This document shows, one piece after another, positions 27,142 through 64,000 of a stretch of DNA of 64,000 nucleotides. Numbering within the stretch: position 1 is the stretch's first letter; every line of letters begins with the position of its first letter. The notes under the pieces are model-generated. The model saw nothing but the letters and a program-made list of their open reading frames with translations. It ran no database searches and had not been told where the DNA came from. Source of the stretch: a virus; IMG/VR virus record IMGVR_UViG_3300045988_132388, one strand, 5' to 3'. The position numbers were made by a program, and so were the translations under genes.

Positions 27142-27837
27142 TTATTTTGTTTGCTTTTCTTTATCTTCGTCTGCAAGTATGCTCTCGACATACCTCACAA
27201 CTCTTTCATATTCTCTGCCCGACTTCTCGCCATCGGCATAAGCTTTTTTTATCAGTTCTTCGCCTGTGCCATAGAAACAGCCTACTTTCCATTTTTTATT
27301 AGAACGAGTCCATGTGAAATACCGTCCACTGCTCCAGAAATTCTTAAAGACGATGTAGTCTGTATCGTTATAGACCGTCGCATAGCCACAGACCACCGCA
27401 TTGCCATATACCTCTGCATTGCCACAGATTCTTACATTGCCATGTACCTCTGCAATGCCATAGATCATTGCGTTGCCATAGACCTCTGCATTGCCATGTA
27501 CCTCTGCAATGCCATAGATCCTTGCGTTGCCATAGACCTTTGCATAGTTATAGACATTTGCGTTACCATAGACACATGCGTTGCCATAGACCTCTGCATT
27601 GCCATAGACCTCTGCATTGCCATAGATCCCTGCGTTGCCATAGACCTTTGCATGGATATAGACCTTTGCGTTACCATAGACCCATGCGCTGCCAACGTGT
27701 GAAAGGTTTTCCTCCTTCTCTATCCAACCGCCAAGTTCTCCGGCTTTAACAGAGCCAAAATCCTTTAATGCTTTAATTCTATACAATCTGTGACCTACAT
27801 GTACAATAAATTCAGAGGTTAATTCGTACTTTTTCAT
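27142..27837 (-). CDS. hexapeptide tandem-repeat protein (about 18 x xVYGNA)
   Basis: 231 aa. A unique N-terminal domain, 18 consecutive 6-residue units (beta-helix-like periodicity) and a unique C-terminal domain. Confidence 0.75.
   Translation of the reverse strand: MKKYELTSEFIVHVGHRLYRIKALKDFGSVKAGELGGWIEKEENLSHVGSAWVYGNAKVYIHAKVYGNAGIYGNAEVYGNAEVYGNACVYGNANVYNYAKVYGNARIYGIAEVHGNAEVYGNAMIYGIAEVHGNVRICGNAEVYGNAVVCGYATVYNDTDYIVFKNFWSSGRYFTWTRSNKKWKVGCFYGTGEELIKKAYADGEKSGREYERVVRYVESILADEDKEKQTK
27360..27695. repeat. in-frame 18-nt tandem repeat array (about 18 units)
   Basis: Units such as gccatagacctctgcatt repeat head-to-tail with point variants inside CDS 27142-27837. Confidence 0.8.
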
Positions 27838-40199: not shown

Positions 40200-40859
40200 T
40201 TATGCTTTTTCAGAAATGTTCAAACTGCTCAGATATTTCATTATTTGCCACGTTGAATAGATACTACGTTTGCAATCATAGACAGGATTGTGCGGCTCGC
40301 CAGGTCCGTCGTATTCATCAACCAACCTGCAAGCCCTGCTGCAATCAAACTCCCCACCTGCCTTGTCGCAGACAATTTTCGCACCTTCCATAAAGAATGT
40401 GCGGTGGTCGCGGAAATTCTTGTAGCTGACAGGACTCTCGATACCATATTTGCTGCATATATTCTTTAATATGGCAATATCAAAATCAGAACCTTGTGAC
40501 CACAACTTTACTTCTTTGGTAGAAGTTTCGTCTTGCACATACGCGATAAAACTAAAAAAATCCTCTATGACGCTATCTATCGACTGTAGAGGTTTTTCGT
40601 CGTAATCCAACAATGACTTTTTTACATCATCGCCCTGTGTTGCCCACCATTCCGATGTCTTTCTATCAAAGGTTAGTCCATCAATAAATGATGATCGCAG
40701 GTCAACGTGACGATAAAAAAAGTAACCGTCGGAAAGACCGTCCGTAAAAGGATCGTCTTCCGCCGCGGCATTCCATGCCACAGCTCCGATGCTCATCACG
40801 GCAGCCGTGGGGCACAAGGCACAGGTTTCTAAGTCAAAGGTTATATTCAATTCACCCAT
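40200..40859 (-). CDS. DEDDh 3'-5' exonuclease
   Basis: ExoI FDLET, ExoII WSQGSDFDIAIL, ExoIII HNPVYDC. Confidence 0.7.
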   Translation of the reverse strand: MGELNITFDLETCALCPTAAVMSIGAVAWNAAAEDDPFTDGLSDGYFFYRHVDLRSSFIDGLTFDRKTSEWWATQGDDVKKSLLDYDEKPLQSIDSVIEDFFSFIAYVQDETSTKEVKLWSQGSDFDIAILKNICSKYGIESPVSYKNFRDHRTFFMEGAKIVCDKAGGEFDCSRACRLVDEYDGPGEPHNPVYDCKRSIYSTWQIMKYLSSLNISEKA

Positions 40860-42068: not shown

Positions 42069-42073
42069 CAAAA

Positions 42074-42105
42074 GCATCCGCCTATCTTCGCAGACTGGCG
42101 GATGC
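42074..42105. terminator. hairpin terminator between converging genes
   Basis: GCATCCGCC...GGCGGATGC, flanked by A/T runs. Confidence 0.6.
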
Positions 42106-42165
42106 AACAAAAACAAAAAACTAAAAACGTCTTTTTAAATAAACCTATGATTAACTAACTTAAAC

Positions 42166-42687
42166 CTATGTCTCGTTTATAGCCGCCATACGACGGTGGT
42201 AAAACTCCTTTTTTTCTATCGGAGTAACTGATATGTCTGCTGTCAGATACGGAACACTAATGTACCAATATCCGTGATGTAGGAATACCATTGGTGTCTC
42301 ATTGCCGAAAGAGAACGGCAAGGAAAGTCCGTCTTTATTCTTCTGTGGGATGAAATTCAGTATACCTATCAGTTCTGACTCGCTTACCACCGGCAATGAA
42401 TACATTTCTTTTTCCAACTCGGAGCCTTCCTCTGGTAAAAAGAACGTGCGACCATCCGGTGTGGCTATCTTCTCCCATCCGTCTTTAATGACGGTATTGT
42501 CAAACTCCACGGCGCCTACTCCTCCTGCCATTCCTTCAGCAGACTCGTAATAGTGGCTTGCGCCTACTTTCTCTGCCCACTGTCGAGCGGTTTCTTCTGC
42601 TTCGGCGCAACGCTTCATAAATTCCTGTAGTTTCATGCCTACCTGACTTTCGCCGGATGTCTTGTAATAATAATGTGGCTTACTCAT
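42166..42687 (-). CDS. hypothetical protein
   Basis: 173-aa ORF. Confidence 0.6.
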   Translation of the reverse strand: MSKPHYYYKTSGESQVGMKLQEFMKRCAEAEETARQWAEKVGASHYYESAEGMAGGVGAVEFDNTVIKDGWEKIATPDGRTFFLPEEGSELEKEMYSLPVVSESELIGILNFIPQKNKDGLSLPFSFGNETPMVFLHHGYWYISVPYLTADISVTPIEKKEFYHRRMAAINET

Positions 42688-43754: not shown

Positions 43755-45350
43755 TTACTTGATTTTTCTATATTGCAATACAATTTTTTTTCGCTTGTCG
43801 TTCTTGAAACAATGTCCAAGAAGCTGACTTAACTTATTGAAAGAAATGTCATCTTTTATGGCATTCTCCATACCTTCTATCTGCTCCTGTGTAACAACAA
43901 GCTGAACGGTGTTGCCATCGTATTGATCAAACGTCATCTTTCTCAACAAGCCTGACAATTCACAACCCAACCACTCGCCTGTTTCGCCATCAAGCATGGC
44001 GATAAGCTGCTGCCATTCCTTTTCGCCCGGCTTAGGCTTTACATCTTCGGTACCAGCAAACAGGAGGAGTTGCTGCTGCACCTCGGTTTTCTTACTATGC
44101 TGCTTTATCCATTGCTCCATAATATAAAAGATAAAGTTCTCTGTCGTGCCACTCCAACTGTGCGGCTGCTCCACCGCCTTTGGCACACCATTATAGGCAT
44201 ACGTCTTAAAATCGCTCCAGAGGTCTTCGGGAACATCGGCAACAAATGCTTTGAGCTGTTCTTTGTCGAGTGTGGGGTATAGCGACATCAACTTGGCGCA
44301 TAAACGCTTTTCTGACGAACCGCGATGCAGCTCTATTTCTCGCGCTACGCCCAACGGTGTGCGCTTGATGTGAAACTTTATCTTCTCAGGATTGCCTCGT
44401 TTTGCACTGCCTCTATAAATCGGTTCGTAGCCTTTTTTGTCAGGATCGGTACATGCCAGCATTATCTCAATCTTGTTTTCCTCACAGAGTCGCTCCATGT
44501 CACCACGTGCTACGTCCAACACCTGTTTGCGAAACTGCGAGAACTTCTGATACTTCTCAGTAGTCACAACTTTTGCGGGCTGCATATCGTCACCTTTCTC
44601 AACATCAACTTTGAACATCCCCAATGCTTCCTTCAGTTCGCGATAATCAATAGAAGGGTGCATCTGGCCCTTGCTCGCATATTTCATCAGAAGAAGGTAA
44701 AGACGTGACGTATAAGCCGAATTGCAGAAGTAAGCTATACGTTCAAGATGGTTGAAATATCCGTCTGCCATATCAAACACGGCTTTTGCCACCTCTATAT
44801 TAATTGTTACCTCAATATACCCGTCACGACGAAACTTGCGCACTTCCAGTCCGTCCTCGTCTATCTTTGTATCGCCGTCTCTGGAATAGTTGAAGTCTCC
44901 TCCTTCTCGCGACGTGAAGTTTTTCGGAATAAATATCTTACTGAAGATAGGCATATAGTCCTCACCTTTTCTAAGTCCTGTCTCCGGATCGAAACGCGGC
45001 AGGTGAAACTCTATCTTCTTCATCTGGTTTATCACCTTTACCGATTCGTCATAATGGCTGCTGTCTATACCAAAATCAGCCAGGCGCAGACGTATGGGTC
45101 CCATCTTCAACAGGTCTTCTTTCGTGATTCCTCCGTTAGGACGTTCTTTGCTTAGATATCGGTGTTCGTTCAAGAACTTGGCGAAATGGTCTTGCAGTCG
45201 TCCGCTTACCAGCAACATAACGTCCTGTTGTATGAGAGAATAACTTTTAGCGTATGACGCATAGTTGACAGGTGTGTTTATCCAACGCAATTCGTTCAGG
45301 GCTATTTGAAGTTTGCCTTCTTTGTCTTCTTTTTTTGCTTTCTTTGCCAT
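43755..45350 (-). CDS. plasmid-type replication initiator (Rep_3-like), tentative
   Basis: 531 aa. Its start codon abuts the iteron arrays. The N-terminal YSLIQQDVMLLVSGRLQ resembles the Rep_3 opening helix pattern. Confidence 0.55.
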   Translation of the reverse strand: MAKKAKKEDKEGKLQIALNELRWINTPVNYASYAKSYSLIQQDVMLLVSGRLQDHFAKFLNEHRYLSKERPNGGITKEDLLKMGPIRLRLADFGIDSSHYDESVKVINQMKKIEFHLPRFDPETGLRKGEDYMPIFSKIFIPKNFTSREGGDFNYSRDGDTKIDEDGLEVRKFRRDGYIEVTINIEVAKAVFDMADGYFNHLERIAYFCNSAYTSRLYLLLMKYASKGQMHPSIDYRELKEALGMFKVDVEKGDDMQPAKVVTTEKYQKFSQFRKQVLDVARGDMERLCEENKIEIMLACTDPDKKGYEPIYRGSAKRGNPEKIKFHIKRTPLGVAREIELHRGSSEKRLCAKLMSLYPTLDKEQLKAFVADVPEDLWSDFKTYAYNGVPKAVEQPHSWSGTTENFIFYIMEQWIKQHSKKTEVQQQLLLFAGTEDVKPKPGEKEWQQLIAMLDGETGEWLGCELSGLLRKMTFDQYDGNTVQLVVTQEQIEGMENAIKDDISFNKLSQLLGHCFKNDKRKKIVLQYRKIK

Positions 45351-45352
45351 AT

Positions 45353-45434
45353 CTACGGATTTGTTTACTTAAACCTACGTTTTTATGTACCAAAACCTAC
45401 GGATTTGTTTACTTAAACCTACGGATTTGTTTAC
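45353..45434 (+). repeat. iteron array, 4 x CTACGGATTTGTTTAC at exact 22-bp spacing
   Basis: Copies start at 45353, 45375 (degenerate), 45397 and 45419. Confidence 0.85.
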
Positions 45435-45603
45435 TTCGTATGCTCTAACTCGTTGATTTTCAACTCCTCCAAATCTCCTTAATATAATTATAATATAAAC
45501 TATTATTTTATTCCTTTTGAAAACGAATAAATCCATATCTTATAATTATATTATATTAAGAGGTTTTGGACATATTGATTATCAGTTAGTTATCTACGGC
45601 GAG

Positions 45604-45685
45604 GTAAACAAAAACGTAGGTTTTGGTAAACAAATCCGTAGGTTTAAGTAAACAAATCCGTAGGTTTTGGTAAACAAATCCGTAG
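45604..45685 (-). repeat. iteron array in inverted orientation, 4 x at 22-bp spacing
   Basis: GTAAACAAATCCGTAG starts at 45604 (degenerate), 45626, 45648 and 45670. A ~170-bp AT-rich spacer with its own inverted repeat lies between the two arrays. Confidence 0.85.
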
Positions 45686-45751
45686 GTATTATAAGCCAAA
45701 AACAGCACACCTTTGTAGTGACTTGGTAAAAAACTTTAGTAGGATTTTACC

Positions 45752-46204: not shown

Positions 46205-47080
46205 TTAAAACGTGAAACTGTTGATTATTTCCTTAGTAAAACGCTCATAGTCCTGCCCCACCCTACAATATGGTGCATAAGAAAAAATATCCTCACGCAT
46301 AGCCTGAGCTTCCACCATCTTCGTATCGCGACGTGTGTAAGCGTCAAACATATAGTCCTGGTACTTCTCACCCAGGTATGCTTTAAACTCCTTTGTGGCG
46401 TTCGTCTGGTCGTTACTCATAACCATCAGCAAGCCACGAATATCAAGGTCAGGATTCAAATCCTCGCGCGTCTCCTCGATGGCATTGATAATCTCGGCAA
46501 TACCTTTTGTCGCCAATACTTCGAGCTGCACGGGCAATACCACGCTTGTGGCTGCTGTCAGTGCGTTGTACGTGAGCAACGACATGGCAGGGGGACAGTC
46601 TATCAGCACGTAGTCGAAAGCTTCCGTAACGGTCGTTACGCCCTCGTCTGCCAGTTCTGTACCGCTCAACTCGTTCAGTGGTTTTGTGAGCAACTTATAA
46701 AGTGCCTTGCGGGGCATGGCTCTCTGGTTTAGGAAGGGTTCGATGGATATAAGTTGTGAAGCTGCCGGAGCGAGATAGATGCCATCGCGTACCTGATAGA
46801 TGGGCAGATTGCTCTGCTGTACCAATGCGTCGTAGACGGTAGGCTTGCCAACGTTCTGAGTCTCGCTCCATCCGAAGAGGAACGATGCACATGCCTGGGG
46901 ATCGAGGTCTATGATGAGCACACGCGGTAAACGCTTGTGTCCGTCGGCATCCGTGCCAAATTTTCCCTTACCAAAGATGCGCAGTCCTGCTGCCAAGCTC
47001 TGTACTGTTGTTGTCTTACCTACTCCCCCCTTATGGTTTACGAAGGCAAGAACTTCTCTTAGTCTTTCCATATTCTTCAA
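46205..47080 (-). CDS. parA: ParA/Soj partition ATPase
   Basis: Deviant Walker A NHKGGVGKTTT; 291 aa. Confidence 0.9.
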   Translation of the reverse strand: MKNMERLREVLAFVNHKGGVGKTTTVQSLAAGLRIFGKGKFGTDADGHKRLPRVLIIDLDPQACASFLFGWSETQNVGKPTVYDALVQQSNLPIYQVRDGIYLAPAASQLISIEPFLNQRAMPRKALYKLLTKPLNELSGTELADEGVTTVTEAFDYVLIDCPPAMSLLTYNALTAATSVVLPVQLEVLATKGIAEIINAIEETREDLNPDLDIRGLLMVMSNDQTNATKEFKAYLGEKYQDYMFDAYTRRDTKMVEAQAMREDIFSYAPYCRVGQDYERFTKEIINSFTF

Positions 47081-48876: not shown

Positions 48877-50406
48877 TTATTTACTGAACGCACCTCCAAG
48901 AAGCGGTAGCAAGAAAACTCCTGCACCAAGCAGTGAGAACAGCAATACACATGCGGCTGCAATCAGCAGGGCTGCCAACGCATAGGTCAGAATTTTCTGG
49001 GCGCTGAAAGGAGAACTTTTCGACATCAACACGGTGCCATCGTTGTTTACTCGCAGCGTCGGCTCGCCTACCTGCGGATAGTTACGCTTGCGCTTCGGCT
49101 TCGGCTGGGGTATAGGTTCCGACTCTACTTCTAACTCTACATCCGACTTTGCTTCCGGCTCCTTACTCTGATTGAAATCCTGCTCTATAACGTGAGGCTC
49201 CGGATGATGAACAATACCCGATTCTTCCTCCACCTTACCATCCACACACACGATAACGTCGCCGTGCAAGCTGACCTCTATCTTGCAGCCCGGCACAAGG
49301 TCCTTTTGGTTGAAGGTCTTTTCGCTTCCGCAGTTGGCATGGGCAAAGCAGTGACCGTTCATCTCCACTTCGTCGAAGTCGGCTACATACGTCACCTTGC
49401 CAGTCTTCTCGCCTACCGTGGTATGATGGCCGCGATAAGTGGTAACAGCCTTGAATACGGGACGAAACTTAAACGCGCAGTTATATTTAGCGTCATGGTC
49501 GGTCTGTCCGATGCGGTCGTAATAGTCGTAGTTGTCAAACTTGAATACGAGTCCGTCGGTAGGGTAGGGCAGCTTCTCGCGCTTCACCTCGGCAGCACAC
49601 ACGACGTTCTCGATGTCCTGCTCCAGCTCGGCATCCGTCTTTTCGAGATTGAGAGCCGACACGAAGCCCGAAGTCTTAAAGCCGTTACGCTCCAAGGCTT
49701 GCATCGCCGGCATGTGTCTTGTCACTCCATCCATGATAAGACGGAAGGGATGAAACTCCAGACGCTTGCACTCGTCCTTTACAGCCACCTTCTTGGACAT
49801 GATGCCGTTGCTCGTAGAACGGGGTGATTTGCCAGCCTTGCTATAACGGACAAACTCCTCAAGCGAGATAATAACCTCACCTCTCACCTCCACTCGGTCG
49901 TACTGGCTCCATGTGTCCACATGGGCAGGGACACCCTGCACATGCTTTATATGGTCCAGGCAGTCGTTGCCAAACAGCTCCTTGCCATGCCCATAGGTGG
50001 CTTCTGCCAACACTCCCTGGCGATATACTAAGCTCACGGTCTCGCCGTCAAACTTCCATTCTACAGCTACCTCCGTGCCCTTGCTGCTGATGTTTGCGGC
50101 TCTCTGCTGCGCTCTCAGGTATTTCACCACCGCCTTGGCATCATGCAACTTCTTCATGGAGAGGCATGCCGTGCGACGTGCCACGGTACGCTTGCCGTTG
50201 CCGTTCTCGCTGTAGCACTGCTGAGTAGGAGAGTCGGGCAATATCTCGTCCGCGTGCTGCTCTTCGTACTCCTGCAAGGCAAAGTACATCGCGTCGTATT
50301 CCTCGTCGCTGATGGTCGGACAGTTCAGCCCGAAGTATCTATAGTCGTGCATCTTCACCACGTCCACCAACGCACGATAATCGTCAAAATCCTTAATCTT
50401 AGCCAT
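48877..50406 (-). CDS. ligA: NAD-dependent DNA ligase (LigA-type adenylation + OB) lacking HhH/BRCT, with C-terminal TM segment
   Basis: N-terminus YRYFGLNCPTISDEEYDAMYFALQEYEEQHADEILPDSPTQ. KxDG motif EWKFDGETVSLVY. Only 509 aa. The last ~40 aa (ILTYALAALLIAAACVLLFSLLGAGVFLLPLLGGAFSK) are hydrophobic. Confidence 0.75.
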   Translation of the reverse strand: MAKIKDFDDYRALVDVVKMHDYRYFGLNCPTISDEEYDAMYFALQEYEEQHADEILPDSPTQQCYSENGNGKRTVARRTACLSMKKLHDAKAVVKYLRAQQRAANISSKGTEVAVEWKFDGETVSLVYRQGVLAEATYGHGKELFGNDCLDHIKHVQGVPAHVDTWSQYDRVEVRGEVIISLEEFVRYSKAGKSPRSTSNGIMSKKVAVKDECKRLEFHPFRLIMDGVTRHMPAMQALERNGFKTSGFVSALNLEKTDAELEQDIENVVCAAEVKREKLPYPTDGLVFKFDNYDYYDRIGQTDHDAKYNCAFKFRPVFKAVTTYRGHHTTVGEKTGKVTYVADFDEVEMNGHCFAHANCGSEKTFNQKDLVPGCKIEVSLHGDVIVCVDGKVEEESGIVHHPEPHVIEQDFNQSKEPEAKSDVELEVESEPIPQPKPKRKRNYPQVGEPTLRVNNDGTVLMSKSSPFSAQKILTYALAALLIAAACVLLFSLLGAGVFLLPLLGGAFSK

Positions 50407-50441
50407 ATTCTATAAAGTATTTAAAATGTTATTATTTATTT

Positions 50442-54240: not shown

Positions 54241-54415
54241 TGTCGCCCATCCAGGAGCTCGAACCTGGCGCCACGCCTTGCCGTGGTGGGCGTTGCGCTG
54301 TGGCTATCCTCACGGACCGCCAGCAGCTAAAAAAATACTCTGAGTATCATTATGCAAGATCCCGCCGAAGGAGTCGAACCGTCGCAAAGGCCGTGCCGGA
54401 CGCGGGATGGGGTGC
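54241..54415 (-). ncRNA. structured RNA-like element, copy A (two tRNA-elbow-like modules plus a GNRA hairpin)
   Basis: Minus strand: a 7-bp closing stem ATCCCGC/GCGGGAT around a T-arm-like GACGG-TTCGACT-CCTTC; an A/T spacer ending in T7; the hairpin GCTG-C-TGGC-G-GTCC-GTGA-GGAT-A-GCCA-CAGC; then CGCCCA/TGGGCG closing a 4-bp D-like hairpin and CCAGG-TTCGAGCT-CCTGG. Confidence 0.5.
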
Positions 54416-54418
54416 GTT

Positions 54419-54598
54419 TTAGAACGTCTGACGGAGGCAAGAGAACAGTACATCAAGTCCTGAGTTGTACTCTATACGCTCCTTGCTGCTGAACTCGTCG
54501 AGGTTGGGAGGTGTCAGGGTGATGTACTCGATAATGCGTGTCATTGCCTCACGGAGGCTCTCTTTATCCATATCTATTGTTATAACTGTCTTTTCCAT
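54419..54598 (-). CDS. small hypothetical protein (59 aa)
   Basis: Hand-translated MEKTVITIDMDKESLREAMTRIIEYITLTPPNLDEFSSKERIEYNSGLDVLFSCLRQTF. Confidence 0.45.
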   Translation of the reverse strand: MEKTVITIDMDKESLREAMTRIIEYITLTPPNLDEFSSKERIEYNSGLDVLFSCLRQTF

Positions 54599-54624
54599 TG
54601 TTGTTTTAATTTTTATTTATATCG

Positions 54625-54753
54625 TTATTTGTTCGTAAATGCTCCTCCCAACAGAGGGAGGAAGAAAACGGCTGCTCCTAACAAGGAAAACAGCACTACA
54701 CACACGCTGGCTATCACCAAGGCTGCGATGATATAGGTTAACGCCTTCTTCAT
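54625..54753 (-). CDS. 42-aa single-pass membrane peptide, paralog of the ligase C-terminal tail
   Basis: MKKALTYIIAALVIASVCVVLFSLLGAAVFFLPLLGGAFTNK. Its ATG overlaps the upstream stop (ATGA). About 29 of 40 residues are identical to the end of ORF 48877-50406. Confidence 0.55.
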   Translation of the reverse strand: MKKALTYIIAALVIASVCVVLFSLLGAAVFFLPLLGGAFTNK

Positions 54754-55379
54754 CTGAGGAAATGATTACCCTCCAGCTTCGCCATCGTCTCCAGATATAC
54801 CATCTGCGAGGTATAGTAACAGAGATTTGTGTATGTAGTTATCCAGTTGTTATATTCTTTTTTCACTCGGTCGCTACGGTTTGAAAGGTCGAAGAGTCTC
54901 TTCCAACGCTGATAAATCTCGTCTGTATAGTCTCTCAGCGGTCTGAGAGACGTTTCCAAGTCGCAAGGCTTAGAGTATACGGGTGCCGGATAAGTAATCT
55001 CACCACTTGCCACCTTGTGAAATACTTGGCGGTAGACCTCGAACACTGCGCGAACCTTACGAGCGATGAAAAACTCAAGGCAAGGGACGGAGAGCATGTA
55101 GATGTTAGTCGGGCGACCTCCTTGAGGTTTTGCGCATCTTTGCGGAAAACTATCAGAGTTTTCCGCATTTCTGCGTAAAACTTGATAATCAATGTCTTCG
55201 ACAAACAATCTGTCGTTTTTCAAGGCTCTCACTGCCTCTTCTTTTCTGCCGAATACTAACGGCCACACATCATCGAGATTAACGGGAAATTCCTCGCTGT
55301 CTCTTGTCAATCTTAATACTTCCTCGAAGTACGCCTTAATCTCTTGATCGGTACTTTGTTTTGTTAATTGTAAAATCAT
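54750..55379 (-). CDS. hypothetical protein (possibly KilA/antirepressor-like DNA-binding)
   Basis: 209-aa ORF. The N-terminal FPVNLDDVWPLVFGRKEEAVRAL...DIDYQVL weakly recalls phage antirepressor-type domains. Confidence 0.55.
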   Translation of the reverse strand: MILQLTKQSTDQEIKAYFEEVLRLTRDSEEFPVNLDDVWPLVFGRKEEAVRALKNDRLFVEDIDYQVLRRNAENSDSFPQRCAKPQGGRPTNIYMLSVPCLEFFIARKVRAVFEVYRQVFHKVASGEITYPAPVYSKPCDLETSLRPLRDYTDEIYQRWKRLFDLSNRSDRVKKEYNNWITTYTNLCYYTSQMVYLETMAKLEGNHFLR

Positions 55380-55437
55380 ATTGTTTTGATAAAAAAAATG
55401 AAATCCTCAATATTTTATACACTATATAAAGAGGCGT

Positions 55438-55719
55438 TTACCACTTGATAGAAACTATCATTGCCACGAACATTACCACCACGCCGAAGCCGAGGTATTG
55501 CCACCCCGTCATTATTACGGGGTCTTCCTGGTCGGTGAAGTTGTGGCGACTGTTGAGCCACTGGCATACGCTCAGGGCTGCACGCTGTGCAAATCCGAAA
55601 GCTTTCGCCATGCACTGCAAAAGGAACACAAGACAAAGCGTCAGGCACTTGCAAAAAGATCGTGCTACGTCCGCTGCGCTCACCTGGGGCGCGGTCGGTG
55701 TTGTTGCTGTTGCTTTCAT
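55438..55719 (-). CDS. small membrane protein
   Basis: 93 aa with two hydrophobic helices. Confidence 0.5.
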   Translation of the reverse strand: MKATATTPTAPQVSAADVARSFCKCLTLCLVFLLQCMAKAFGFAQRAALSVCQWLNSRHNFTDQEDPVIMTGWQYLGFGVVVMFVAMIVSIKW

Positions 55720-55750
55720 ATCTTTCTAATTTTTATAGGGTTTATAATAT

Positions 55751-55930
55751 TGTCGCCCACCCAGGAGCTCGAACCTGGTGCCACGCCTTGCCGTGGTGGG
55801 CGTTGCGCTGTGGCTATCTTCACAGACTGCCAGCAGCAAAAAAATACTCTGATTATGATTATGCAAGATCCCGCCGATGGGGTCGAACCATCGTAGAGCC
55901 ATGCCGGGCGCGGGAGAAGAAGAGGTGGGG
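55751..55930 (-). ncRNA. structured RNA-like element, copy B
   Basis: Same architecture as copy A, with high identity by eye. The T-like arm is a perfect GATGG-TTCGACC-CCATC. The closing stem CGCCCAC/GTGGGCG is a perfect 7 bp. The GNRA hairpin carries a compensatory C:G to T:A change relative to copy A. Confidence 0.5.
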
Positions 55931-56113
55931 TTATCGTTGTACACTCAATTCTACGGTTTCGCATTGACGAATACACTTCTTCCTGAACTTGCAGCGACTA
56001 TGCTTCTTCAGGTATCTCAGCTCCTGGTCGGCTTCTTTTTCTGTATACTCTATTCCGTTGTACTCACGCCAATCACCTTCAATAAAGGCGTAAATGCTAT
56101 AAAATTTTGTCAT
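55931..56113 (-). CDS. small hypothetical protein
   Basis: 60-aa ORF preceded by the CTATAATATAG motif. Confidence 0.45.
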   Translation of the reverse strand: MTKFYSIYAFIEGDWREYNGIEYTEKEADQELRYLKKHSRCKFRKKCIRQCETVELSVQR

Positions 56114-56136
56114 AATTCCGTCGTTTTTTAAAGGTT

Positions 56137-56147
56137 CTATAATATAG
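56137..56147. promoter_or_regulatory. palindromic motif CTATAATATAG
   Basis: Lies 24 nt upstream of the minus-strand start at 56113. Confidence 0.5.
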
Positions 56148-56155
56148 GGATGCTT

Positions 56156-56428
56156 CTAAGATATTTCATACTTGCCAACCTTCACGGCATAGCCGATGTA
56201 TGTCAGCTTTGTGCGCCCGAAGGCTCTCACGTCGCTATACCATGGCGTGTAAGTCAGGAATATGCTGTCATCCTTCAAGGTACAGCCGTGTATGTCACAG
56301 CTTACACAATGACCTTGCTGCTTGTGCTTTATATAAGCGGCCTTCGCCTCTCGTAATGTTTTATAACATTCGCCGCCGAATTTATACGGTTCATAAACGC
56401 CAAACTTATAATAATCTATTCTTATCAT
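56156..56428 (-). CDS. hypothetical protein
   Basis: 90-aa ORF. Confidence 0.55.
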   Translation of the reverse strand: MIRIDYYKFGVYEPYKFGGECYKTLREAKAAYIKHKQQGHCVSCDIHGCTLKDDSIFLTYTPWYSDVRAFGRTKLTYIGYAVKVGKYEIS

Positions 56429-56445
56429 AAAATTCTAATAAAAGT

Positions 56446-56456
56446 CTATAATATAC
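56446..56456. promoter_or_regulatory. palindromic motif variant CTATAATATAC
   Basis: Lies 18 nt upstream of the start at 56428. Confidence 0.4.
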
Positions 56457-56695
56457 TATTCGACAATAATTTCAATCCGTGACAAATCATTGTCTACATT
56501 GATTGCATACCCCTTATAATTGATGCCGTAGCCTATGCAGCCATAACTACAAAATAAAGGTTCACAAATCATTCGGGAGCCATACCAAGTGAAGCCTCTT
56601 GGATCTCGATTATATCCATTAAGCCAATTTTCACAATCGCCTGAACGTTTCACAATAGCATTGATTAAACGCCTCAATTCATTAGGTATTCTCAT
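56456..56695 (-). CDS. hypothetical protein
   Basis: 79-aa ORF. Confidence 0.55.
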   Translation of the reverse strand: MRIPNELRRLINAIVKRSGDCENWLNGYNRDPRGFTWYGSRMICEPLFCSYGCIGYGINYKGYAINVDNDLSRIEIIVE

Positions 56696-56718
56696 AATTT
56701 TCTAATATTTTACACGTT

Positions 56719-56729
56719 CTATAATATAG
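56719..56729. promoter_or_regulatory. palindromic motif CTATAATATAG
   Basis: Lies 24 nt upstream of the start at 56695, followed by the shared leader AAAATATTAGAAAATT-ATG (minus strand). Confidence 0.5.
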
Positions 56730-56733
56730 GGTG

Positions 56734-57081
56734 TTACTTGCTTTGTGTCCCAGCCGAGCGACGGTGCGCCATTCCCGACTTGACAAAAATTTGGGGGACG
56801 GAGAGGTGGCGGCCGGCAGAGGCAGGCGCGGCACACACGGCTGCGCCGTAGTATATAAGAAGGCGAGAAAGGTAATCAAGGGAGGAGCACCAGAGGGGCA
56901 GCGGGGTGGCGTGAGAAACAGATAGCGCGACATTCACGGCTTTAAAATCGGCATCGGCAGGGATAGTGTCGCAGTCTGCGGTGGGCGCGTTGTGGGCGAT
57001 CCACTCGCGTATATTTTCGTTCAGACTGGCGGGGGCATTGTACCGCACGCCCAGAATTGAAAAAGTTCTTTTCTTATTCAT
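56734..57081 (-). CDS. hypothetical protein (C-terminal half doubtful)
   Basis: 115-aa ORF. The N-terminal ~55 aa look protein-like. The GC-rich 3' half encodes low-complexity sequence and may not be coding. Confidence 0.4.
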   Translation of the reverse strand: MNKKRTFSILGVRYNAPASLNENIREWIAHNAPTADCDTIPADADFKAVNVALSVSHATPLPLWCSSLDYLSRLLIYYGAAVCAAPASAGRHLSVPQIFVKSGMAHRRSAGTQSK

Positions 57082-57104
57082 AATTTTCTAATATTTTGAA
57101 AGGT

Positions 57105-57115
57105 CTATAATATAG
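57105..57115. promoter_or_regulatory. palindromic motif CTATAATATAG
   Basis: Lies 24 nt upstream of the start at 57081, with the same leader as at 56695. Confidence 0.5.
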
Positions 57116-57128
57116 GGGGTATCTCCTG

Positions 57129-57163
57129 AGCGTGTGCGGAATCCTTAATATTTCGCACACGCT
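57129..57163 (-). terminator. 10-bp hairpin after the 805-aa gene
   Basis: AGCGTGTGCG...CGCACACGCT, flanked on both sides by CTATAATATAG copies (57105 and 57162). No U-tract. Confidence 0.4.
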
Positions 57164-57176
57164 ATAATATAGGAGT

Positions 57177-59594
57177 TTATGCGGCGGTGTGCTGCTTTGG
57201 ATGTGGCGTGCCGAACAGGTAGCGCCATTCTTCAGGCGTGAGCGCTTCGGCGGCTCTGCGGTCGGCGGTGCTGCTTAACCTCTGGATGGCCTCCAGTGCG
57301 CAAGATGTGGCCGACCGTTCGCCCACGCTTTCGGGCGATATGCTCGCGGCTAACGTCATGAGGTCGTACACCTCCACGCCTAAAGCGTTGAGGGCATGCA
57401 GCCTGGCGCGTAATGCGTCCAGCGGGTTTTTATTCCTGCCGTTCTGGCGAAGGTCGGCGGCGACGTAACGCAATAGGGCGAGGCGTTCAGCGGGTGCCGT
57501 GATTTCATCGGCTGTGGAATCGGGCGGCGTGCTCTCGCCTTTCTCGGTGCTGTCTTCCGGCTGCTCCTCCTTGCTGAAGCCGTACAGCGTGCGGAACTCG
57601 TCAGCCGTGAGCACGGCGGCGGCACGCTGTCGGGCGCGTTGGTCGGCCTTATAGTCGGCACGTTGCACGAGGTCGGCAACGTCCACGCCACACACAAAGA
57701 GGGCGGAAAGTCTCGCGTTTATGGCGGCTATGTGCTCCCCTGCTTGCGTCAATCGGTCGAAGTCTTCGGCGGCACTACGCAACAGCTCCAGGCGGTCAGA
57801 TGCCAGCACGTCCGCGAAGTCTTCCGCGTTGTCGGTCGGTGCGGTTGCCGTGATTTCGGCGGCCTCGTATAACGTAGCATCTGCGCCCGTCTGGGCGGTT
57901 GTGCTGTCTTCTTCGGCGGTCTGGGCATCAGCTACCACGAACCACTCGCGCAGGCGTTCCACGGCCTCGGGTTCGCGTGCTTGCCACTGCTGGGCGGTTT
58001 TGTTCCAGGTCGCACCGTGTGCCTTGATTGCCTTACGGTTGCGGTAGGTGGTGCGGCTGTCGCCTACCACTGCCACGCCCTCGGCAGTCTCCAACAACTG
58101 CAGACCCTCGGCGGGTGCGTCGGTGTCGGTCTGTGCTGCATCCTGAGCGTGTGCGGCTTCGGTGTGCTTGGTCGGTGTCGGGTCGGTAGGCTCTGGCGTT
58201 GTGGTCTTGGTGTAGCTGCGCACATTCCAAGCACGGCGGGCGATGGTCTCGGCGTTCTCGGCGTAACCGTGTGCGAAGATGTCGCACACGTCCACGCCCA
58301 GGGCTGCGGCCACGGCCTCGGCCTCCTTGTTGGCGTATGTGTACGCGTCAGTATAACCGTATTTATTGCGATTGTCGGCGGCTGGCACGGCTGCGAAGAT
58401 CTGCGCCAATATCTCGGCGCGTGCCTCGTCCGACATTTCGCGGCTTGTCTTAATATCGCCGCCGTTGCTGCCCATGGTCAGGCGTGCGAAGTCGGCAAAC
58501 TCGGCGTAATCTACGCCCGTACTGTCGTCCCATCCGTTGAAGGTGTCACGGCAACGGCAGAACAACGAAAGATCGGTTTTTTCGTTGAACTCCTCAACGG
58601 TCGGGCCGTCGGTCCATGACAATTCAAAATCGGCGCCCCAGCCGTGGCGAACCTTCAAAGAGAATTTAACGCCGGGGAAGGCGGCGCGACACATTGCTAA
58701 AATATTAGCCTTCCGCGCGTTCATTAGCTGGCGGCTTGTGGTCTTCGGGTCAGCCTCTAACGGGCGCACATCCTGCATCAGGTGCGCCCACTTGGCGCAA
58801 CGTGCGCGATACTTTGCGCGGCGCTGCGCTCTCTTCTCTGCTGCCTGTCGCTCCTCTTCCGCCTTGCGGGCTTCTTCGGCTGCCTTAACGCTTGCCACCT
58901 CGTCGGCGAGCATTACGGGCCACTCTATAGGTACATATATATAACGGGCGTAATTGTAGCCCTCGGAATCTATAAGATAGTATTTGCCCGATGGTGACAC
59001 GACGAGCGCGCCGACGGTATAAAAAGTACCCAATTTTTCAGGGTCGTTATAGTATGTATCGCCTTCGTCCACGTCCTCAGAACGTGAAAAGCCCTGCAGG
59101 TTGTGACGTGTTACCAGTTCATCGGCAAGTCCCGGGCGTACAAAATCCGCCTCCGATACATTTATAATTTGCTCAACACAACATAAGCGGGCGGGCTTCT
59201 CGGCTGCGTGTGTGTAGTAGTTGAGGTTGTGCAGCTCCTCCATCAGGCCGCGGCCTCCGTCACACTTTAGGCCGCTATTATCAGCCCAGAAGAAGCCACC
59301 AACGGCGGGCACTCCTTCGAGGCGGTCGGCCTCCTGCGCGTGCTGTGCGTACTTGGTGCGCTGGTGTGCGGCCTTCTTCTCTGCGATGATCTCGCGGGCT
59401 TTTGCTTCTGCTTGCTCGGTCGTGTCCTTGCCGAAGGTTTTAATATATGCCGGACGTGATACGGGCGACATGGTGCCGCACCATCCGCACAAGCAAATAT
59501 ATTGCTCGTTGTCGCTGTAATACTGTGCGCTCTCGGCCTTGTCGGCAAATACTTTTACTAAATTCTCGACTATCTCGTTAAATGTTGCTTTCAT
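57177..59594 (-). CDS. large Ala/Glu-rich protein with internal domain duplication (polyvalent-protein-like), function unknown
   Basis: 805 aa and visibly GC-rich. N-terminal CLCGWCG. The block KAIKAHGATWNKTAQQWQA resembles the KxxGAxWdxxxKxW module of plasmid/phage polyvalent proteins. Two ~90-aa C-terminal repeats (..RLELLRSAAEDF.. / ..RLALLRYVAADL..). Confidence 0.65.
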   Translation of the reverse strand: MKATFNEIVENLVKVFADKAESAQYYSDNEQYICLCGWCGTMSPVSRPAYIKTFGKDTTEQAEAKAREIIAEKKAAHQRTKYAQHAQEADRLEGVPAVGGFFWADNSGLKCDGGRGLMEELHNLNYYTHAAEKPARLCCVEQIINVSEADFVRPGLADELVTRHNLQGFSRSEDVDEGDTYYNDPEKLGTFYTVGALVVSPSGKYYLIDSEGYNYARYIYVPIEWPVMLADEVASVKAAEEARKAEEERQAAEKRAQRRAKYRARCAKWAHLMQDVRPLEADPKTTSRQLMNARKANILAMCRAAFPGVKFSLKVRHGWGADFELSWTDGPTVEEFNEKTDLSLFCRCRDTFNGWDDSTGVDYAEFADFARLTMGSNGGDIKTSREMSDEARAEILAQIFAAVPAADNRNKYGYTDAYTYANKEAEAVAAALGVDVCDIFAHGYAENAETIARRAWNVRSYTKTTTPEPTDPTPTKHTEAAHAQDAAQTDTDAPAEGLQLLETAEGVAVVGDSRTTYRNRKAIKAHGATWNKTAQQWQAREPEAVERLREWFVVADAQTAEEDSTTAQTGADATLYEAAEITATAPTDNAEDFADVLASDRLELLRSAAEDFDRLTQAGEHIAAINARLSALFVCGVDVADLVQRADYKADQRARQRAAAVLTADEFRTLYGFSKEEQPEDSTEKGESTPPDSTADEITAPAERLALLRYVAADLRQNGRNKNPLDALRARLHALNALGVEVYDLMTLAASISPESVGERSATSCALEAIQRLSSTADRRAAEALTPEEWRYLFGTPHPKQHTAA

Positions 59595-63911: not shown

Positions 63912-64000
63912 TTGTACCTTTGCAAAAGTATTTTATTAGAATCTCATATTCTATAAAGTATTTAAAATGTTATTGCCGCTCTTGGTCCGCGAGGATGAAG

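What the first reader, a model, noticed from the sequence alone, without database searches (positions are those of the whole stretch)
54241..55930. Duplicated ~180-nt structured RNA-like element with two tRNA-elbow-like modules and one compensatory change
Copies at 54241-54415 and 55751-55930 (minus strand) are highly similar and visibly more GC-rich than their surroundings. Each starts within about 4 nt of the stop codon of a small gene. Each copy contains the following.
- Module 2: a 6-7 bp closing stem around a short hairpin and a T-arm-like stem-loop with GGTTCGAC (copy B is a perfect GATGG-TTCGACC-CCATC).
- An A/U spacer ending in U7.
- A long bulged hairpin capped by the GNRA loop GUGA.
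- Module 1: the closing stem CGCCCAC/GUGGGCG, a 4-bp D-like hairpin with a GG-containing loop, and CCAGG-UUCGAGCU-CCUGG.

In other words, each module has acceptor, D-like and T arms but no anticodon arm. Between copies the pair next to the GUGA loop changes from C:G to U:A, which is compensatory. An A-to-G change in copy B also repairs the seventh pair of the module 1 stem. I could not fold either module as a canonical tRNA, and neither has G3:U70 or a tmRNA-like tag frame. Possibilities include decoys for tRNA-binding factors, RNase P/Z punctuation sites that process the polycistronic mRNA, Y-RNA-like elements, or a new regulatory RNA class.
Basis: partly seen in the sequence, partly recalled or inferred. 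Interest (0 to 1): 0.8.

Follow-up and report, generated by a model that had tools for sequence, protein, structure and literature searches.

The report
Anticodon-less tRNA-like RNA cassette in phage
Two copies of a roughly 175-base noncoding cassette in a gut-phage early-gene region each hold two miniature tRNA look-alikes that lack the anticodon arm, flanking a terminator-style hairpin; the cassette is a conserved, undescribed RNA family that most likely acts as a cutting signal for tRNA-processing enzymes.

Summary
Both copies lie on the minus strand at 54242-54418 and 55752-55930. Each has the same layout:
- a C-rich leader
- module M2, about 48 nt
- an AU-rich spacer with a U7 run
- a 12-bp hairpin with a GUGA loop
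- a 4-nt linker
- module M1, 49 nt
- an "AC" tail

Each module is a three-way junction of a 6-bp acceptor-like stem, a short D-like hairpin and a T arm (GGUUCGA). Neither has an anticodon arm.

ARAGORN and Rfam find nothing in the window. About 70 related gut-phage contigs carry the unit. In 74 distinct hairpin-plus-module units, 94% of cells are paired and 23 of 27 pairs show double changes. The linker is 4 nt in 66 of 74 units, and C74 is present in 71 of 74.

The hairpin apex also caps ordinary intrinsic terminators, one of them in this window at 42074-42105.

Best reading (about 0.4): these are shape-recognised RNase P (possibly also RNase Z and CCA-adding enzyme) processing signals. They would punctuate the early polycistronic RNA, leave hairpin-capped 3' ends and release roughly 50-nt "top-half tRNAs".

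Rival readings are a trans-acting tRNA mimic or decoy, or excision handles for a spacer-plus-hairpin small RNA. Function is untested.

The parts
54408..54418 (-). Copy A: C-rich leader (AACGCACCCCA) between the stop codon of the 59-aa ORF and M2
   Evidence: Sequence. A ...CCCTACCCCA/CCCCA leader precedes M2 in all 25 distinct M2 sequences, downstream of at least 5 different upstream genes.
54360..54407 (-). Copy A: module M2. Acceptor-like stem TCCCGC/GCGGGA, weak D-like hairpin (CC-GGCAC-GG), T arm GACGG-TTCGACT-CCTTC with one C.U mismatch, followed by 'TC'.
   Evidence: Structural scan and minimum-free-energy fold. In the M2 family alignment A5 the T stem is 97.6% paired with 3 covarying pairs, and the acceptor is 96.5% paired with only U.G-type changes.
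54328..54359 (-). Copy A: AU-rich spacer (..UUGCAUAAUGAUACUCAGAGUAUUUUUUUA) with the U7 run at 54329-54335
   Evidence: Sequence. The block AAUCAUAAUCA..AGUAUUUUUUGUUU is conserved in sequence across relatives and shows no paired structure.
54297..54327 (-). Copy A: 12-bp bulged hairpin GCUG-C-UGGC-G-GUCC[GUGA]GGAU-A-GCCA-CAGC, with no U tract after it
   Evidence: Fold. CM R1 hit at 54241-54331, 102 bits. 11 of 12 hairpin pairs show double changes. The same apex caps terminators elsewhere.
54293..54296 (-). Copy A: 4-nt linker GCAA. The predicted RNase P cut would fall after it, between 54293 and 54292.
   Evidence: The linker is 4 nt in 66 of 74 distinct units, with consensus nCAA. The cut site is inferred, not shown.
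54242..54292 (-). Copy A: module M1. Acceptor CGCCCA/TGGGCG, seventh layer C.A, D-like CACG-GCAAGG-CGTG, T arm CCAGG-UUCGAGCU-CCUGG. Includes the tail A73 C74 at 54243-54242.
   Evidence: The acceptor is 99.5% paired with 6 of 6 pairs covarying. 3 of 5 T-stem pairs covary and the two inner G-C pairs are invariant. A73 is present in 67 of 74 units and C74 in 71 of 74.
55916..55930 (-). Copy B: leader (CCCCACCUCUUCUUC) after the stop codon of the 60-aa ORF
   Evidence: Sequence. This leader diverges from the family's CCCTACCCCA leader.
55869..55915 (-). Copy B: module M2, with a perfect T arm GAUGG-UUCGACC-CCAUC
55838..55868 (-). Copy B: AU-rich spacer with the U7 run at 55838-55844
55807..55837 (-). 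Copy B: bulged hairpin with a GUGA loop. The closing pair is U-A instead of C-G, which is compensatory.
   Evidence: CM R1 hit at 55751-55841, 98 bits.
55752..55806 (-). Copy B: linker GCAA (55806-55803), module M1 (55802-55754, seventh pair C-G here) and tail AC. It lies 31 nt upstream of the ATG of the 93-aa ORF (55438-55719).

Best explanation
**What is shown**

Each copy is a noncoding RNA cassette transcribed with the early small-gene operon on the minus strand. It combines two parts.
- Two "top-half tRNA" modules. Each has an acceptor-like stem of 6 bp plus one usually mismatched layer, a short D-like hairpin and a T arm with a UUCGA loop. Neither has an anticodon arm.
- The phage's own terminator-type GNRA hairpin, here without its U tract. 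It sits exactly 4 nt upstream of module M1.

**What is inferred**

The modules are recognised by shape by the host's tRNA-end enzymes, above all RNase P and probably also RNase Z and the CCA-adding enzyme. RNase P would cut at the 5' edge of each module.
- The cut before M1 would leave the upstream RNA ending in the stable hairpin plus a 4-nt tail. That is the kind of 3' end an intrinsic terminator makes, but RNA polymerase is not stopped, so downstream genes are still transcribed.
- The cut before M2 would detach the upstream cistron.

The products would be a doubly protected RNA of about 115 nt (M2, spacer, hairpin, linker) and tRNA-like RNAs of about 50 nt.

Overall, the cassette would work as intercistronic punctuation and as a terminator-independent way of making 3' ends in a polycistronic phage transcript.
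For: **The RNA structure is real**
- 91 CM hits give 74 distinct units. 94.2% of cells are paired, against 77% in shuffles and 29-38% when partners are slid. 23 of 27 pairs show double changes.
- RNAalifold on the raw MAFFT alignment independently finds the hairpin, acceptor and T stems. 12 of its 17 pairs are compensatory.

**The RNA is read from the gene strand**
- A G.U pair is invariant in the hairpin (52 of 52 sequences), and U.G variants are frequent.

**The conservation pattern fits shape-reading enzymes rather than sequence-reading ones**
- Acceptor sequences differ between module types (CGCCCA, CGCCCG, CACUCC, UCCCGC, GGGCAC, GGCCGG and others) but stay paired.
- The T loop and the two inner G-C pairs of the T stem are fixed.
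- D-like loops vary.

**The modules match the minimal RNase P substrate**
- Established knowledge: that substrate is the acceptor plus T-arm stack and the elbow. The anticodon arm is dispensable, and the enzyme contacts the 3' RCC.
- The modules keep 6+1+5 = 12 stacked layers, A73 in 67 of 74 units and C74 in 71 of 74. Position 75 is free.
- Real tRNA genes of similar phages have tails AAC, ACT and GTT.

**The hairpin is a terminator-type 3'-end hairpin**
- The same apex caps a hairpin followed by UUUUG terminator in this window at 42074-42105.
- Of 86 stemmed sites from an unbiased apex scan, 57 are followed by a T run.
- In relatives L019, L049, L102 and L114 the same M2-spacer-hairpin ends in UUUUUG instead of M1.

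**Placement**
- The spacing between hairpin and module is fixed at 4 nt in 66 of 74 units.
- In the 69 unit contexts examined, each unit lies between ORFs called on its own strand. 27 of 68 lie 13-52 nt upstream of the next ATG.

**The same design recurs in an unrelated phage group**
- It is seen in L207, L296 and L311. Those loci share no neighbouring genes with the window.
- Some modules there carry full D arms and encoded ACC, UCCA, GCCA or ACCA ends.
- One scores 38.8 bits on the Rfam tRNA model, with the anticodon arm replaced by 3 nt.

**Precedent**
- The tRNA-like domain of M. smegmatis YrlA is cut by RNase P and receives CCA (PMC4201824).
Against: - No cleavage, RNA ends or expression data were available. 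Every processing step is inferred.
- M2 has no protective hairpin upstream, so a cut there would expose the upstream cistron rather than stabilise it.
- A hairpin only 4 nt from the cut site could hinder binding of the RNase P protein to the leader.
- The acceptor has 6 Watson-Crick pairs plus a mismatch, not 7. The +1 nucleotide is C or U rather than the usual G.
- Encoded CCA ends in the second phage group, and several module types per genome, would also fit a function for the released tRNA-like RNAs themselves.
- In L290 a module follows a complete terminator (hairpin plus U8), which a pure 3'-end-formation role does not need.
- The AU-rich spacer may contain a Bacteroides-type promoter. 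TA-N2-TTTG fits exactly in some relatives. In that case the hairpin would be a 5' leader.
- The covariation counts were made on an alignment fitted to the model.
Confidence: 0.4

Rival explanations
1. Trans-acting tRNA mimics. The roughly 50-nt modules are the functional products, released by RNase P/Z and completed with CCA. These "top-half tRNAs" would bind or soak up factors that read the acceptor end or the elbow. Examples are defence toxins that modify or cleave the tRNA 3' end, tRNA-modifying or CCA enzymes, EF-Tu, and anticodon-independent synthetases. The hairpin would be only a leader or stabiliser.
For: - Some modules in the second phage group encode complete UCCA, GCCA or ACCA ends and canonical D arms.
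- At least 5 acceptor types occur within one phage family, with 2-4 modules per genome.
- C74 is nearly invariant.
- The elements sit among small ORFs of unknown function and an LPD29-domain protein, which is typical early or accessory territory.
- Loss of the anticodon arm would keep such an RNA out of decoding.
Against: - Nothing identifies a partner. The neighbouring genes scanned in the window show no RNA-related Pfam or PHROG family, and no neighbouring genes are shared between the two phage groups.
- Freely covarying acceptor sequences argue against a sequence-specific partner.
- Most known anti-phage tRNA nucleases target the anticodon loop, which these modules lack (established knowledge).
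- Window modules do not encode CCA.
Confidence: 0.25
2. The conserved product is a small RNA made of the AU-rich spacer plus the hairpin, possibly still attached to M2. The tRNA-like modules would be excision handles that define its ends. Comparable cases are tRNA-flanked spacers in tRNA operons and the tRNA-hairpin TMER transcripts of MHV68.
For: - The spacer is conserved in sequence without pairing, as a seed or protein-binding site would be.
- The same M2-spacer-hairpin RNA would be produced in relatives by a normal terminator instead of M1 (L019, L049, L102, L114).
- A single-stranded AU-rich 5' part plus a terminator-like 3' hairpin is the usual bacterial small-RNA design (established knowledge).
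Against: - No complementary target beyond chance was found in the window.
- The same U-rich-plus-hairpin arrangement precedes an ordinary terminator at 42074-42120. The spacer's U-rich part may therefore be generic.
- M4-type units lack M2.
- Host targets could not be searched.
Confidence: 0.15
3. The cassette is an intrinsic or leaky transcription terminator. The tRNA-like modules would be incidental structured flanks.
For: - The hairpin apex is identical to that of true terminators.
- Copy A lies at the end of a gene block, about 250 nt before the next ORF, which has its own TTTG...TAccTTTG promoter-like sequence.
Against: - In both window copies the hairpin is followed by GCAACGCCC, not by a U tract. 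The terminator scan does not call it.
- Copy B sits 31 nt upstream of a co-directional gene.
- Covariation and T-loop conservation in the modules show selection on them.
Confidence: 0.05
4. The elements are decayed tRNA genes, integration-site remnants, or recombination linkers at the DNA level, with no RNA function.
For: - The modules look like tRNAs with the anticodon arm deleted.
- The cassette is found downstream of at least 5 different genes, as mosaic boundary sequences are.
Against: - Compensatory changes occur in all helices.
- G.U pairs are strand-specific.
- The linker is fixed at 4 nt and C74 is nearly invariant.
- The same design recurs in an unrelated phage group.

Confidence: 0.03
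5. The cassette is a bacterial Y RNA (YrlA-like) partner of a Ro60 protein.
For: YrlA also has T- and D-arm mimicry without a true anticodon arm, and occurs in phages (PMC4201824).
Against: - No Rfam hit of any family at E<=10 in the region.
- No Ro60/TROVE hit among the 10 neighbouring proteins.
- The GNCGAAN0-1G Ro-binding helix was not searched for.
- The acceptor-like stems here are open-ended rather than closed stem-loops.
Confidence: 0.02

Closest known systems
MALAT1/NEAT1 3'-end module: protective structure followed by the tRNA-like mascRNA/menRNA (Rfam mascRNA-menRNA); processing by RNase P and RNase Z, then CCA addition (from my own knowledge and PMC8457004)
   Same: A stable protective RNA structure lies immediately upstream of a tRNA-like element. 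A cut at the 5' edge of that element would create the protected 3' end of the upstream RNA and release a small tRNA-like RNA. This is the closest match to how the cassette is proposed to work.
   Different: - That system is eukaryotic, nuclear and part of a long noncoding RNA.
- Its protector is a triple helix, not a GNRA hairpin.
- mascRNA keeps an anticodon-like stem.
- Cleavage there is demonstrated. Here it is only inferred.
tRNA-like domain of bacterial Y RNA YrlA (Chen et al. 2014, PMC4201824)
   Same: Both mimic T arm and D arm without a decoding anticodon loop. YrlA is found in bacteria and phages. M. smegmatis YrlA is cut by RNase P and receives CCA.
   Different: - YrlA is defined by a Ro60-binding helix (GNCGAAN0-1G) and by adjacency to the rsr gene. 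No Ro60-like gene was found among the neighbours here, and the helix motif was not searched for.
- The YrlA acceptor equivalent is usually a closed stem-loop.
- YrlA has no terminator-type hairpin with a fixed linker.
tRNA punctuation of polycistronic transcripts (animal mitochondria) and RNase P cleavage of bacterial polycistronic mRNAs (my own knowledge)
   Same: tRNA or tRNA-like structures lie between cistrons and serve as cleavage signals.
   Different: Mitochondrial punctuation uses functional tRNAs. Here the elements are dedicated, non-decoding miniatures coupled to a hairpin.
MHV68 TMERs: viral tRNA-like element fused to hairpins and processed by tRNase Z (my own knowledge)
   Same: Both are viral, with a tRNA-like element physically coupled to stem-loops and host tRNA enzymes defining the ends.
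   Different: The order is reversed (tRNA-like element first). TMERs are transcribed by eukaryotic polymerase III, and their hairpins are miRNA precursors.
DUF2693-FD RNA motif (Rfam RF02926)
   Same: It is a 49-position three-way junction: a 7-bp closing stem, a small hairpin, and a 5-bp stem with a 7-nt loop. A weak match lies just upstream of a hairpin-plus-module unit in L207, in the position M2 occupies here.
   Different: - The window gives no match, even at E<=10.
- Its loop is AGCGAGA, not a T loop.
- The L207 match (29.2 bits) is below the gathering score of 44.5.
Canonical tRNA (Rfam RF00005) and the tRNA-like domain of tmRNA
   Same: The modules share an acceptor stem, a T arm with GGUUCGA, G.C pairs at the positions of 52-62 and 53-61, and a discriminator A. 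A relative in L296 passes the tRNA gathering score with the anticodon arm deleted.
   Different: There is no anticodon arm, and in the window no positions 8-9, no variable region and no CCA. ARAGORN reports no tRNA or tmRNA gene in the window.

Membership tests
tRNA (RF00005 / ARAGORN) | Cloverleaf with an anticodon arm (5-bp stem, 7-nt loop) | tested here: not met
   ARAGORN finds 0 genes in the window. There is no RF00005 hit at the gathering score or at E<=10. The modules are 47-49 nt, with only 17-18 nt between the acceptor 5' strand and the T stem.
tRNA (RF00005 / ARAGORN) | T arm: 5-bp stem with inner G-C pairs and a UUCRA-type 7-nt loop | tested here: met
   The T stem is 95% paired and the two inner G-C pairs are invariant. 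The loops are UUCGANN, 7 nt in many relatives and in M2, and 8 nt in the window's M1.
tRNA (RF00005 / ARAGORN) | 7-bp acceptor stem with a discriminator base and a 3' CCA (encoded or added) | tested here: inconclusive
   There are 6 covarying pairs plus a seventh layer that is usually C.A, C.U or G.G. A73 and C74 are conserved. CCA is not encoded in the window. Whether it is added cannot be tested.
tmRNA | tRNA-like domain formed by the 5' and 3' ends, plus a tag reading frame and pseudoknots | tested here: not met
   ARAGORN finds no tmRNA and there is no RF00023 hit in the region. Each module closes on itself.
Bacterial Y RNA (YrlA) | Ro60-binding helix with GNCGAAN0-1G, and a location next to an rsr (Ro60) gene | tested here: inconclusive
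   Defining features taken from PMC4201824. There is no Rfam hit of any family in the region at E<=10, and no TROVE or Ro60 family among the 10 neighbouring proteins. The GNCGAAN0-1G motif itself was not searched for.
DUF2693-FD RNA (RF02926) | Match to the covariance model at the gathering score (44.5 bits) | tested here: not met
   No hit in the window at the gathering score or at E<=10. There is only a 29.2-bit hit in the distant locus L207.
Intrinsic (Rho-independent) terminator | GC-rich hairpin immediately followed by a U tract | tested here: not met
   The hairpins at 54297-54327 and 55807-55837 are followed by GCAACGCCC and are not called by the terminator scan. The same apex at 42074-42105 is followed by UUUUG.
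RNase P-dependent 3'-end formation (mascRNA-type) | tRNA-like element with a coaxial acceptor plus T-arm stack and an elbow, directly downstream of a protective structure | tested here: met
   A hairpin, a 4-nt linker and then the module are present in 66 of 74 units. The stems are supported by covariation.
RNase P-dependent 3'-end formation (mascRNA-type) | Actual RNase P cleavage at the 5' edge of the tRNA-like element | not testable with these tools
   This needs an in vitro cleavage assay or RNA-end mapping.

The most novel reading that the evidence does not exclude
Gut phages of at least two unrelated groups may encode a previously unrecognised class of "top-half tRNAs". The first group has Prevotella/Bacteroidales-type genomes. 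The second uses Shine-Dalgarno-like sequences, and one similar contig was binned with [Ruminococcus] lactaris. These RNAs would be anticodon-arm-less tRNA mimics, matured by RNase P/Z and the CCA-adding enzyme. They would act in trans on machinery that reads the tRNA acceptor end or elbow. Possible roles are as decoys against defence toxins that modify or cut tRNA 3' ends, or as non-decoding amino-acid carriers. The conserved GUCCGYGAGGAUAG hairpin would be an obligatory partner element.
Probability: 0.25. Interest if true: 0.85.

Novelty: new variant of a known kind. Interest (0 to 1): 0.65.

Why it matters
- If the inferred mechanism holds, abundant human-gut phages have evolved a compact, dedicated RNase P signal fused to a terminator hairpin. 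It would make stable 3' ends without stopping transcription. That would be a bacterial-virus counterpart of the MALAT1-mascRNA device, and a new principle of operon punctuation in Bacteroidota, where RNA processing is little studied.
- If instead the released mini-tRNAs act in trans, they would be a new class of phage tRNA mimic.
- In either case this is a well-supported structured RNA family absent from Rfam 15. It gives defined, cheap experiments: cleavage assays and end mapping.
- It is also a potentially useful synthetic part, as a self-excising spacer for polycistronic constructs in Bacteroides.

Tried and rejected
- **Database look-ups.** ARAGORN found nothing in the window. Rfam found nothing at the gathering score over the window or at E<=10 over the region. 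Distant blastn of copy A against 50,697 deposited phage genomes gave no match.
- **Plus-strand fold.** It is no better than shuffles (z = 0.09). The RNA is on the minus strand.
- **Coding potential.** ORFs overlapping the copies (for example 55726-55944 and 54310-54456) are rejected. The copies and their homologs differ by 1- and 2-nt indels.
- **Neighbouring proteins.** Ten were scanned against PHROGs and Pfam. Only a PHROG of unknown function and an LPD29 domain in the 805-aa protein were found. Twenty further window proteins showed replication and nucleotide-metabolism functions and no tRNA- or RNA-processing enzyme. One of them (40200-40859) matches the Rv2179c-like 3'-5' exoribonuclease domain.
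- **Shared neighbour genes.** None were found between the two phage groups that carry hairpin-plus-module units.
- **Small-RNA target search.** A search with the spacer complement found nothing beyond the element itself.
- **Sigma-70 promoter scan.** Uninformative. Bacteroides-type promoters are not covered.
- **Collection scans that were too loose.**
  - The genome scan with an acceptor/T-loop pattern gave only random GC-rich hits.
  - The single metagenome scan mostly picked up real tRNAs.
- **SRP-RNA resemblance.** I considered a resemblance of the hairpin (GGUCC-GNRA-GGA) to SRP RNA helix 8 and dropped it. There is no Rfam SRP hit at E<=10.
- **Literature.** Searches found no description of this element.


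Full report
**1. What is in the window**

Reading the minus strand, the two copies share the same layout.
- The stop codon of a small ORF. These are 54419-54598 (59 aa) and 55931-56113 (60 aa).
- A short C-rich leader.
- Module M2, at 54360-54407 and 55869-55915.
- An AU-rich spacer ending in a U7 run.
- A bulged hairpin with a GUGA loop, at 54297-54327 and 55807-55837.
- A 4-nt linker, GCAA.
- Module M1, at 54244-54292 and 55754-55802.
- The dinucleotide AC.

The copies are 89-94% identical over the repeat blocks, and similarity stops at the flanks. GC is 0.55-0.59 inside the copies against 0.26-0.45 outside.

Copy A gives a close variant. The plus strand folds no better than shuffled sequence.

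The energy z-scores of the single sequences are weak (-0.8 and -1.2). The case for structure therefore has to come from comparison with relatives.

ARAGORN finds no tRNA or tmRNA in the 64 kb. Rfam 15 gives no hit at the gathering score over the window, nor at E<=10 in the region. Deposited phage genomes contain nothing similar.

**2. Relatives**

An exact scan of IMG/VR for the M1 T arm, followed by gapped scans for the two acceptor/T-loop frames, returned many gut-virus contigs of about 50-105 kb. An nhmmer profile of 14 full cassettes showed that the element is modular. The arrangements seen were:
- full cassettes;
- M2, spacer and hairpin alone;
- hairpin plus module alone;
- tandem hairpin-plus-module units.

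Reading these loci revealed further module types with different acceptor sequences but the same design.
- M4: CGCCCG/CGGGCG, with a canonical CGAGG-UUCGAGU-CCUCG T arm.
- M3: CACUCC/GGAGUG.
- Further variants are listed.

Two Prevotella metagenome-assembled-genome contigs carry the unit, which suggests the host.

A second, unrelated group of contigs (L207, L296, L311, and also L194) shares no neighbouring genes with the window. In this group L207 and L296 have AGGAGG-type ribosome-binding sites. The group nevertheless has the same composite of tRNA-like element, AU/U-rich spacer, GNRA hairpin, short linker and tRNA-like element.
- Some of its modules have full D arms and encoded ACC, UCCA, GCCA or ACCA ends.
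- One of them passes the Rfam tRNA gathering score (38.8 bits), with the 17 anticodon-arm positions replaced by 3 nt.
- ARAGORN calls none of these elements tRNAs.

**3. Structure**

I aligned 52 distinct hairpin-plus-module units (A3) and built a covariance model from them (R1: 91 positions, 27 pairs). I then searched 67 sources with it. This gave 91 hits, of which 74 are distinct. The window has exactly two hits: 54241-54331 at 102 bits and 55751-55841 at 98 bits.

On the resulting alignment:
- 94.2% of cells form standard pairs, against 77% in column shuffles and 29-38% when the 3' partners are slid by 1-3 columns.
- 23 of 27 pairs show changes on both sides.
- The acceptor stem is 99.5% paired, and all 6 of its pairs covary.
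- 3 of the 5 T-stem pairs covary. The two pairs nearest the loop are invariant G-C, as in tRNA.
- 3 of 4 D-like pairs and 11 of 12 hairpin pairs covary.

That alignment was fitted to the model and leans towards it. As an independent check I ran RNAalifold on the raw MAFFT alignment. It finds the inner hairpin, acceptor and T stems, and 12 of its 17 pairs carry compensatory changes.

An invariant G.U pair in the hairpin (52 of 52 sequences) and frequent U.G variants place the RNA on the gene strand.

For M2 I used a plain MAFFT alignment of 25 sequences (A5) and counted pairs on it.
- The T stem is 97.6% paired, with three covarying pairs.
- The acceptor is 96.5% paired, with only wobble-type changes.
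- The D-like hairpin is weak.

M2 is therefore supported, but less strongly than M1.

**4. Features that bear on mechanism**

- **Linker.** The hairpin-to-module linker is 4 nt in 66 of 74 distinct units, with consensus nCAA.
- **3' tail.** The base after the acceptor 3' strand is A in 67 of 74 units and the next is C in 71 of 74. The third is free. Real tRNA genes found in similar phage contigs end in AAC, ACT or GTT. The fixed C is therefore not simply what tRNA genes look like in these genomes.
- **Stack length.** The acceptor (6 pairs), a seventh and usually non-Watson-Crick layer, and the 5-bp T stem together make 12 stacked layers.
- **Loops.** T loops are UUCGANN, 7 or 8 nt long. D-like loops vary widely.
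- **Hairpin identity.** The apex GUCCGYGAGGAUAGC is not specific to this element.
Of those 86, 57 are followed by a T run and 7 by a T-loop module.
  - In this window the same apex caps a classical terminator after gene 42166-42687: GCAUCCGCCA-GUCUGCGAAGAUAG-GCGGAUGC followed by UUUUG at 42074-42105. It too is preceded by a U-rich stretch.
  - In relatives L019, L049, L102 and L114 the M2-spacer-hairpin ends in UUUUUG where the window has M1.
- **Placement.** In the 69 unit contexts examined, each unit lies between ORFs called on its own strand. 27 of 68 lie 13-52 nt upstream of the next ATG. The others lie at block ends, as copy A does.
- **M2 context.** M2 follows the stop codons of at least five different genes and is always preceded by a C-rich leader.

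**5. Interpretation**

The conservation pattern is as follows:
- a fixed T loop and inner T-stem pairs;
- freely covarying acceptor sequences;
- a dispensable anticodon arm;
- a fixed discriminator and C74;
- constant geometry.

This is what one expects for recognition by the shape-reading tRNA-end enzymes. Bacterial RNase P needs only the acceptor/T-arm stack and the elbow, and it contacts the 3' RCC (established knowledge). The tRNA-like domain of a bacterial Y RNA is cut by RNase P and receives CCA (PMC4201824).

The tRNA-like module sits where the U tract would be in a terminator built on the same hairpin. A cut at its 5' edge would therefore give the upstream RNA the same hairpin-capped 3' end that termination gives, while transcription continues into the next gene.

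I therefore favour an intercistronic punctuation and terminator-independent 3'-end-formation device. It would work like the MALAT1-mascRNA arrangement. My confidence is about 0.4, because no step of processing has been observed.

Weak points of this reading:
- M2 has no protecting hairpin upstream.
- A hairpin 4 nt from the cut site may hinder the RNase P protein.
- The spacer might hold a Bacteroides-type promoter, which would make the hairpin a 5' leader.
- L290 has a module after a complete terminator.

**6. Rival readings**

- **Trans-acting top-half tRNA, as mimic or decoy (0.25).** This is favoured by the encoded CCA ends in the second phage group and by the multiplicity of module types. 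No partner can be named.
- **Spacer-plus-hairpin small RNA with the modules as excision handles (0.15).** This is favoured by the sequence-conserved spacer and by the terminator variant. No target was found.
- **Plain terminator (0.05).** There is no U tract after the hairpin.
- **tRNA pseudogene, att remnant or recombination linker (0.03).** This is contradicted by the covariation.
- **Y RNA (0.02).** There is no Rfam hit in the region and no Ro60-like neighbour.

**7. Known or new**

The element is not a member of tRNA, tmRNA or DUF2693-FD. For each of these a defining feature was tested and failed. Membership of YrlA was tested inconclusively: no Ro60-like neighbour was found, but the Ro-binding motif was not searched for. 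The intrinsic-terminator definition is also not met.

It belongs to the broad, known kind "tRNA-like elements that borrow tRNA-processing enzymes". Within that kind, the following combination is absent from Rfam 15, and the literature searches I could run did not find it:
- an anticodon-arm-less three-way junction;
- a fixed 4-nt link to a terminator-type GNRA hairpin;
- paired use in a cassette;
- spread across gut phages.

I rate it a new variant of a known kind, with interest 0.65.

Noticed in passing
window 42070-42120 (-): A classical terminator lies after gene 42166-42687: GCAUCCGCCA-GUCUGCGAAGAUAG-GCGGAUGC followed by UUUUG. It uses the same hairpin apex as the cassette and is likewise preceded by UUUUUUGUUUUUGUU. 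The 15-nt apex is conserved on terminators of many different gut-phage contigs (57 of 86 stemmed sites). Why a terminator loop region should be sequence-conserved is unexplained.
   Followed up: partly
window 56110-57177 (-) and 55720-55750 (-): A palindromic motif CTATATTATAG(AAC) (repeat family D4) sits upstream of four small minus-strand genes. A variant, CTATATTATAAAC, lies between M1 of copy B and the 93-aa gene. It looks like an operator or a phage-specific promoter element.
   Followed up: partly
window 50404-50433 and 63945-63974 (+): An exact 30-nt repeat. Read on the minus strand it is AATAACATTTTAAATACTTTATAGAATATG and abuts the ATG of the NAD-dependent DNA ligase gene. The same ACATTTTAATACTTTATAGAAT motif precedes stand-alone hairpin-plus-M4 units in relatives (L004, L049, L303). 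Those units are therefore placed like genes behind this motif. At 63975-64000 a GTCCGCGAGGAT hairpin start is cut off by the window end.
   Followed up: partly
window 56734-57081 (-): A GC-rich island (up to 0.69 GC in an AT-rich region) carries a 115-aa ORF with no Pfam or PHROG hit. It is conserved at about 85% identity only in L028, L032 and L306. Whether it is coding or RNA is unclear.
   Followed up: partly
L207 8549-8598 (-): A weak DUF2693-FD (RF02926) match (29.2 bits against a gathering score of 44.5) lies just upstream of a hairpin-plus-module unit, in the position M2 occupies in the window. That motif has the same 49-position three-way-junction layout but no T loop.
   Followed up: no
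L296 1577-1635 (-); L207 9510-9578 (-) and 8640-8700 (-); L311 848-950 (+): In a second phage group, elements with full D arms but a deleted or stunted anticodon arm reach the Rfam tRNA gathering score (38.8 and 33.2 bits). Other modules in the group encode UCCA, GCCA or ACCA ends. ARAGORN reports no tRNA genes in L207, L296 or L311.
   Followed up: partly
window 45349-45700, 46205-47071 (-): 22-nt iteron-like direct and inverted repeats lie next to a ParA-like gene and a 531-aa ORF. This suggests plasmid-like maintenance of this phage genome.
   Followed up: no
window 27316-27729 and 28446-29312: Long tandem arrays with periods of 18 nt and 27 nt lie inside minus-strand ORFs (231 aa and 379 aa). 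They point to repetitive proteins.
   Followed up: no
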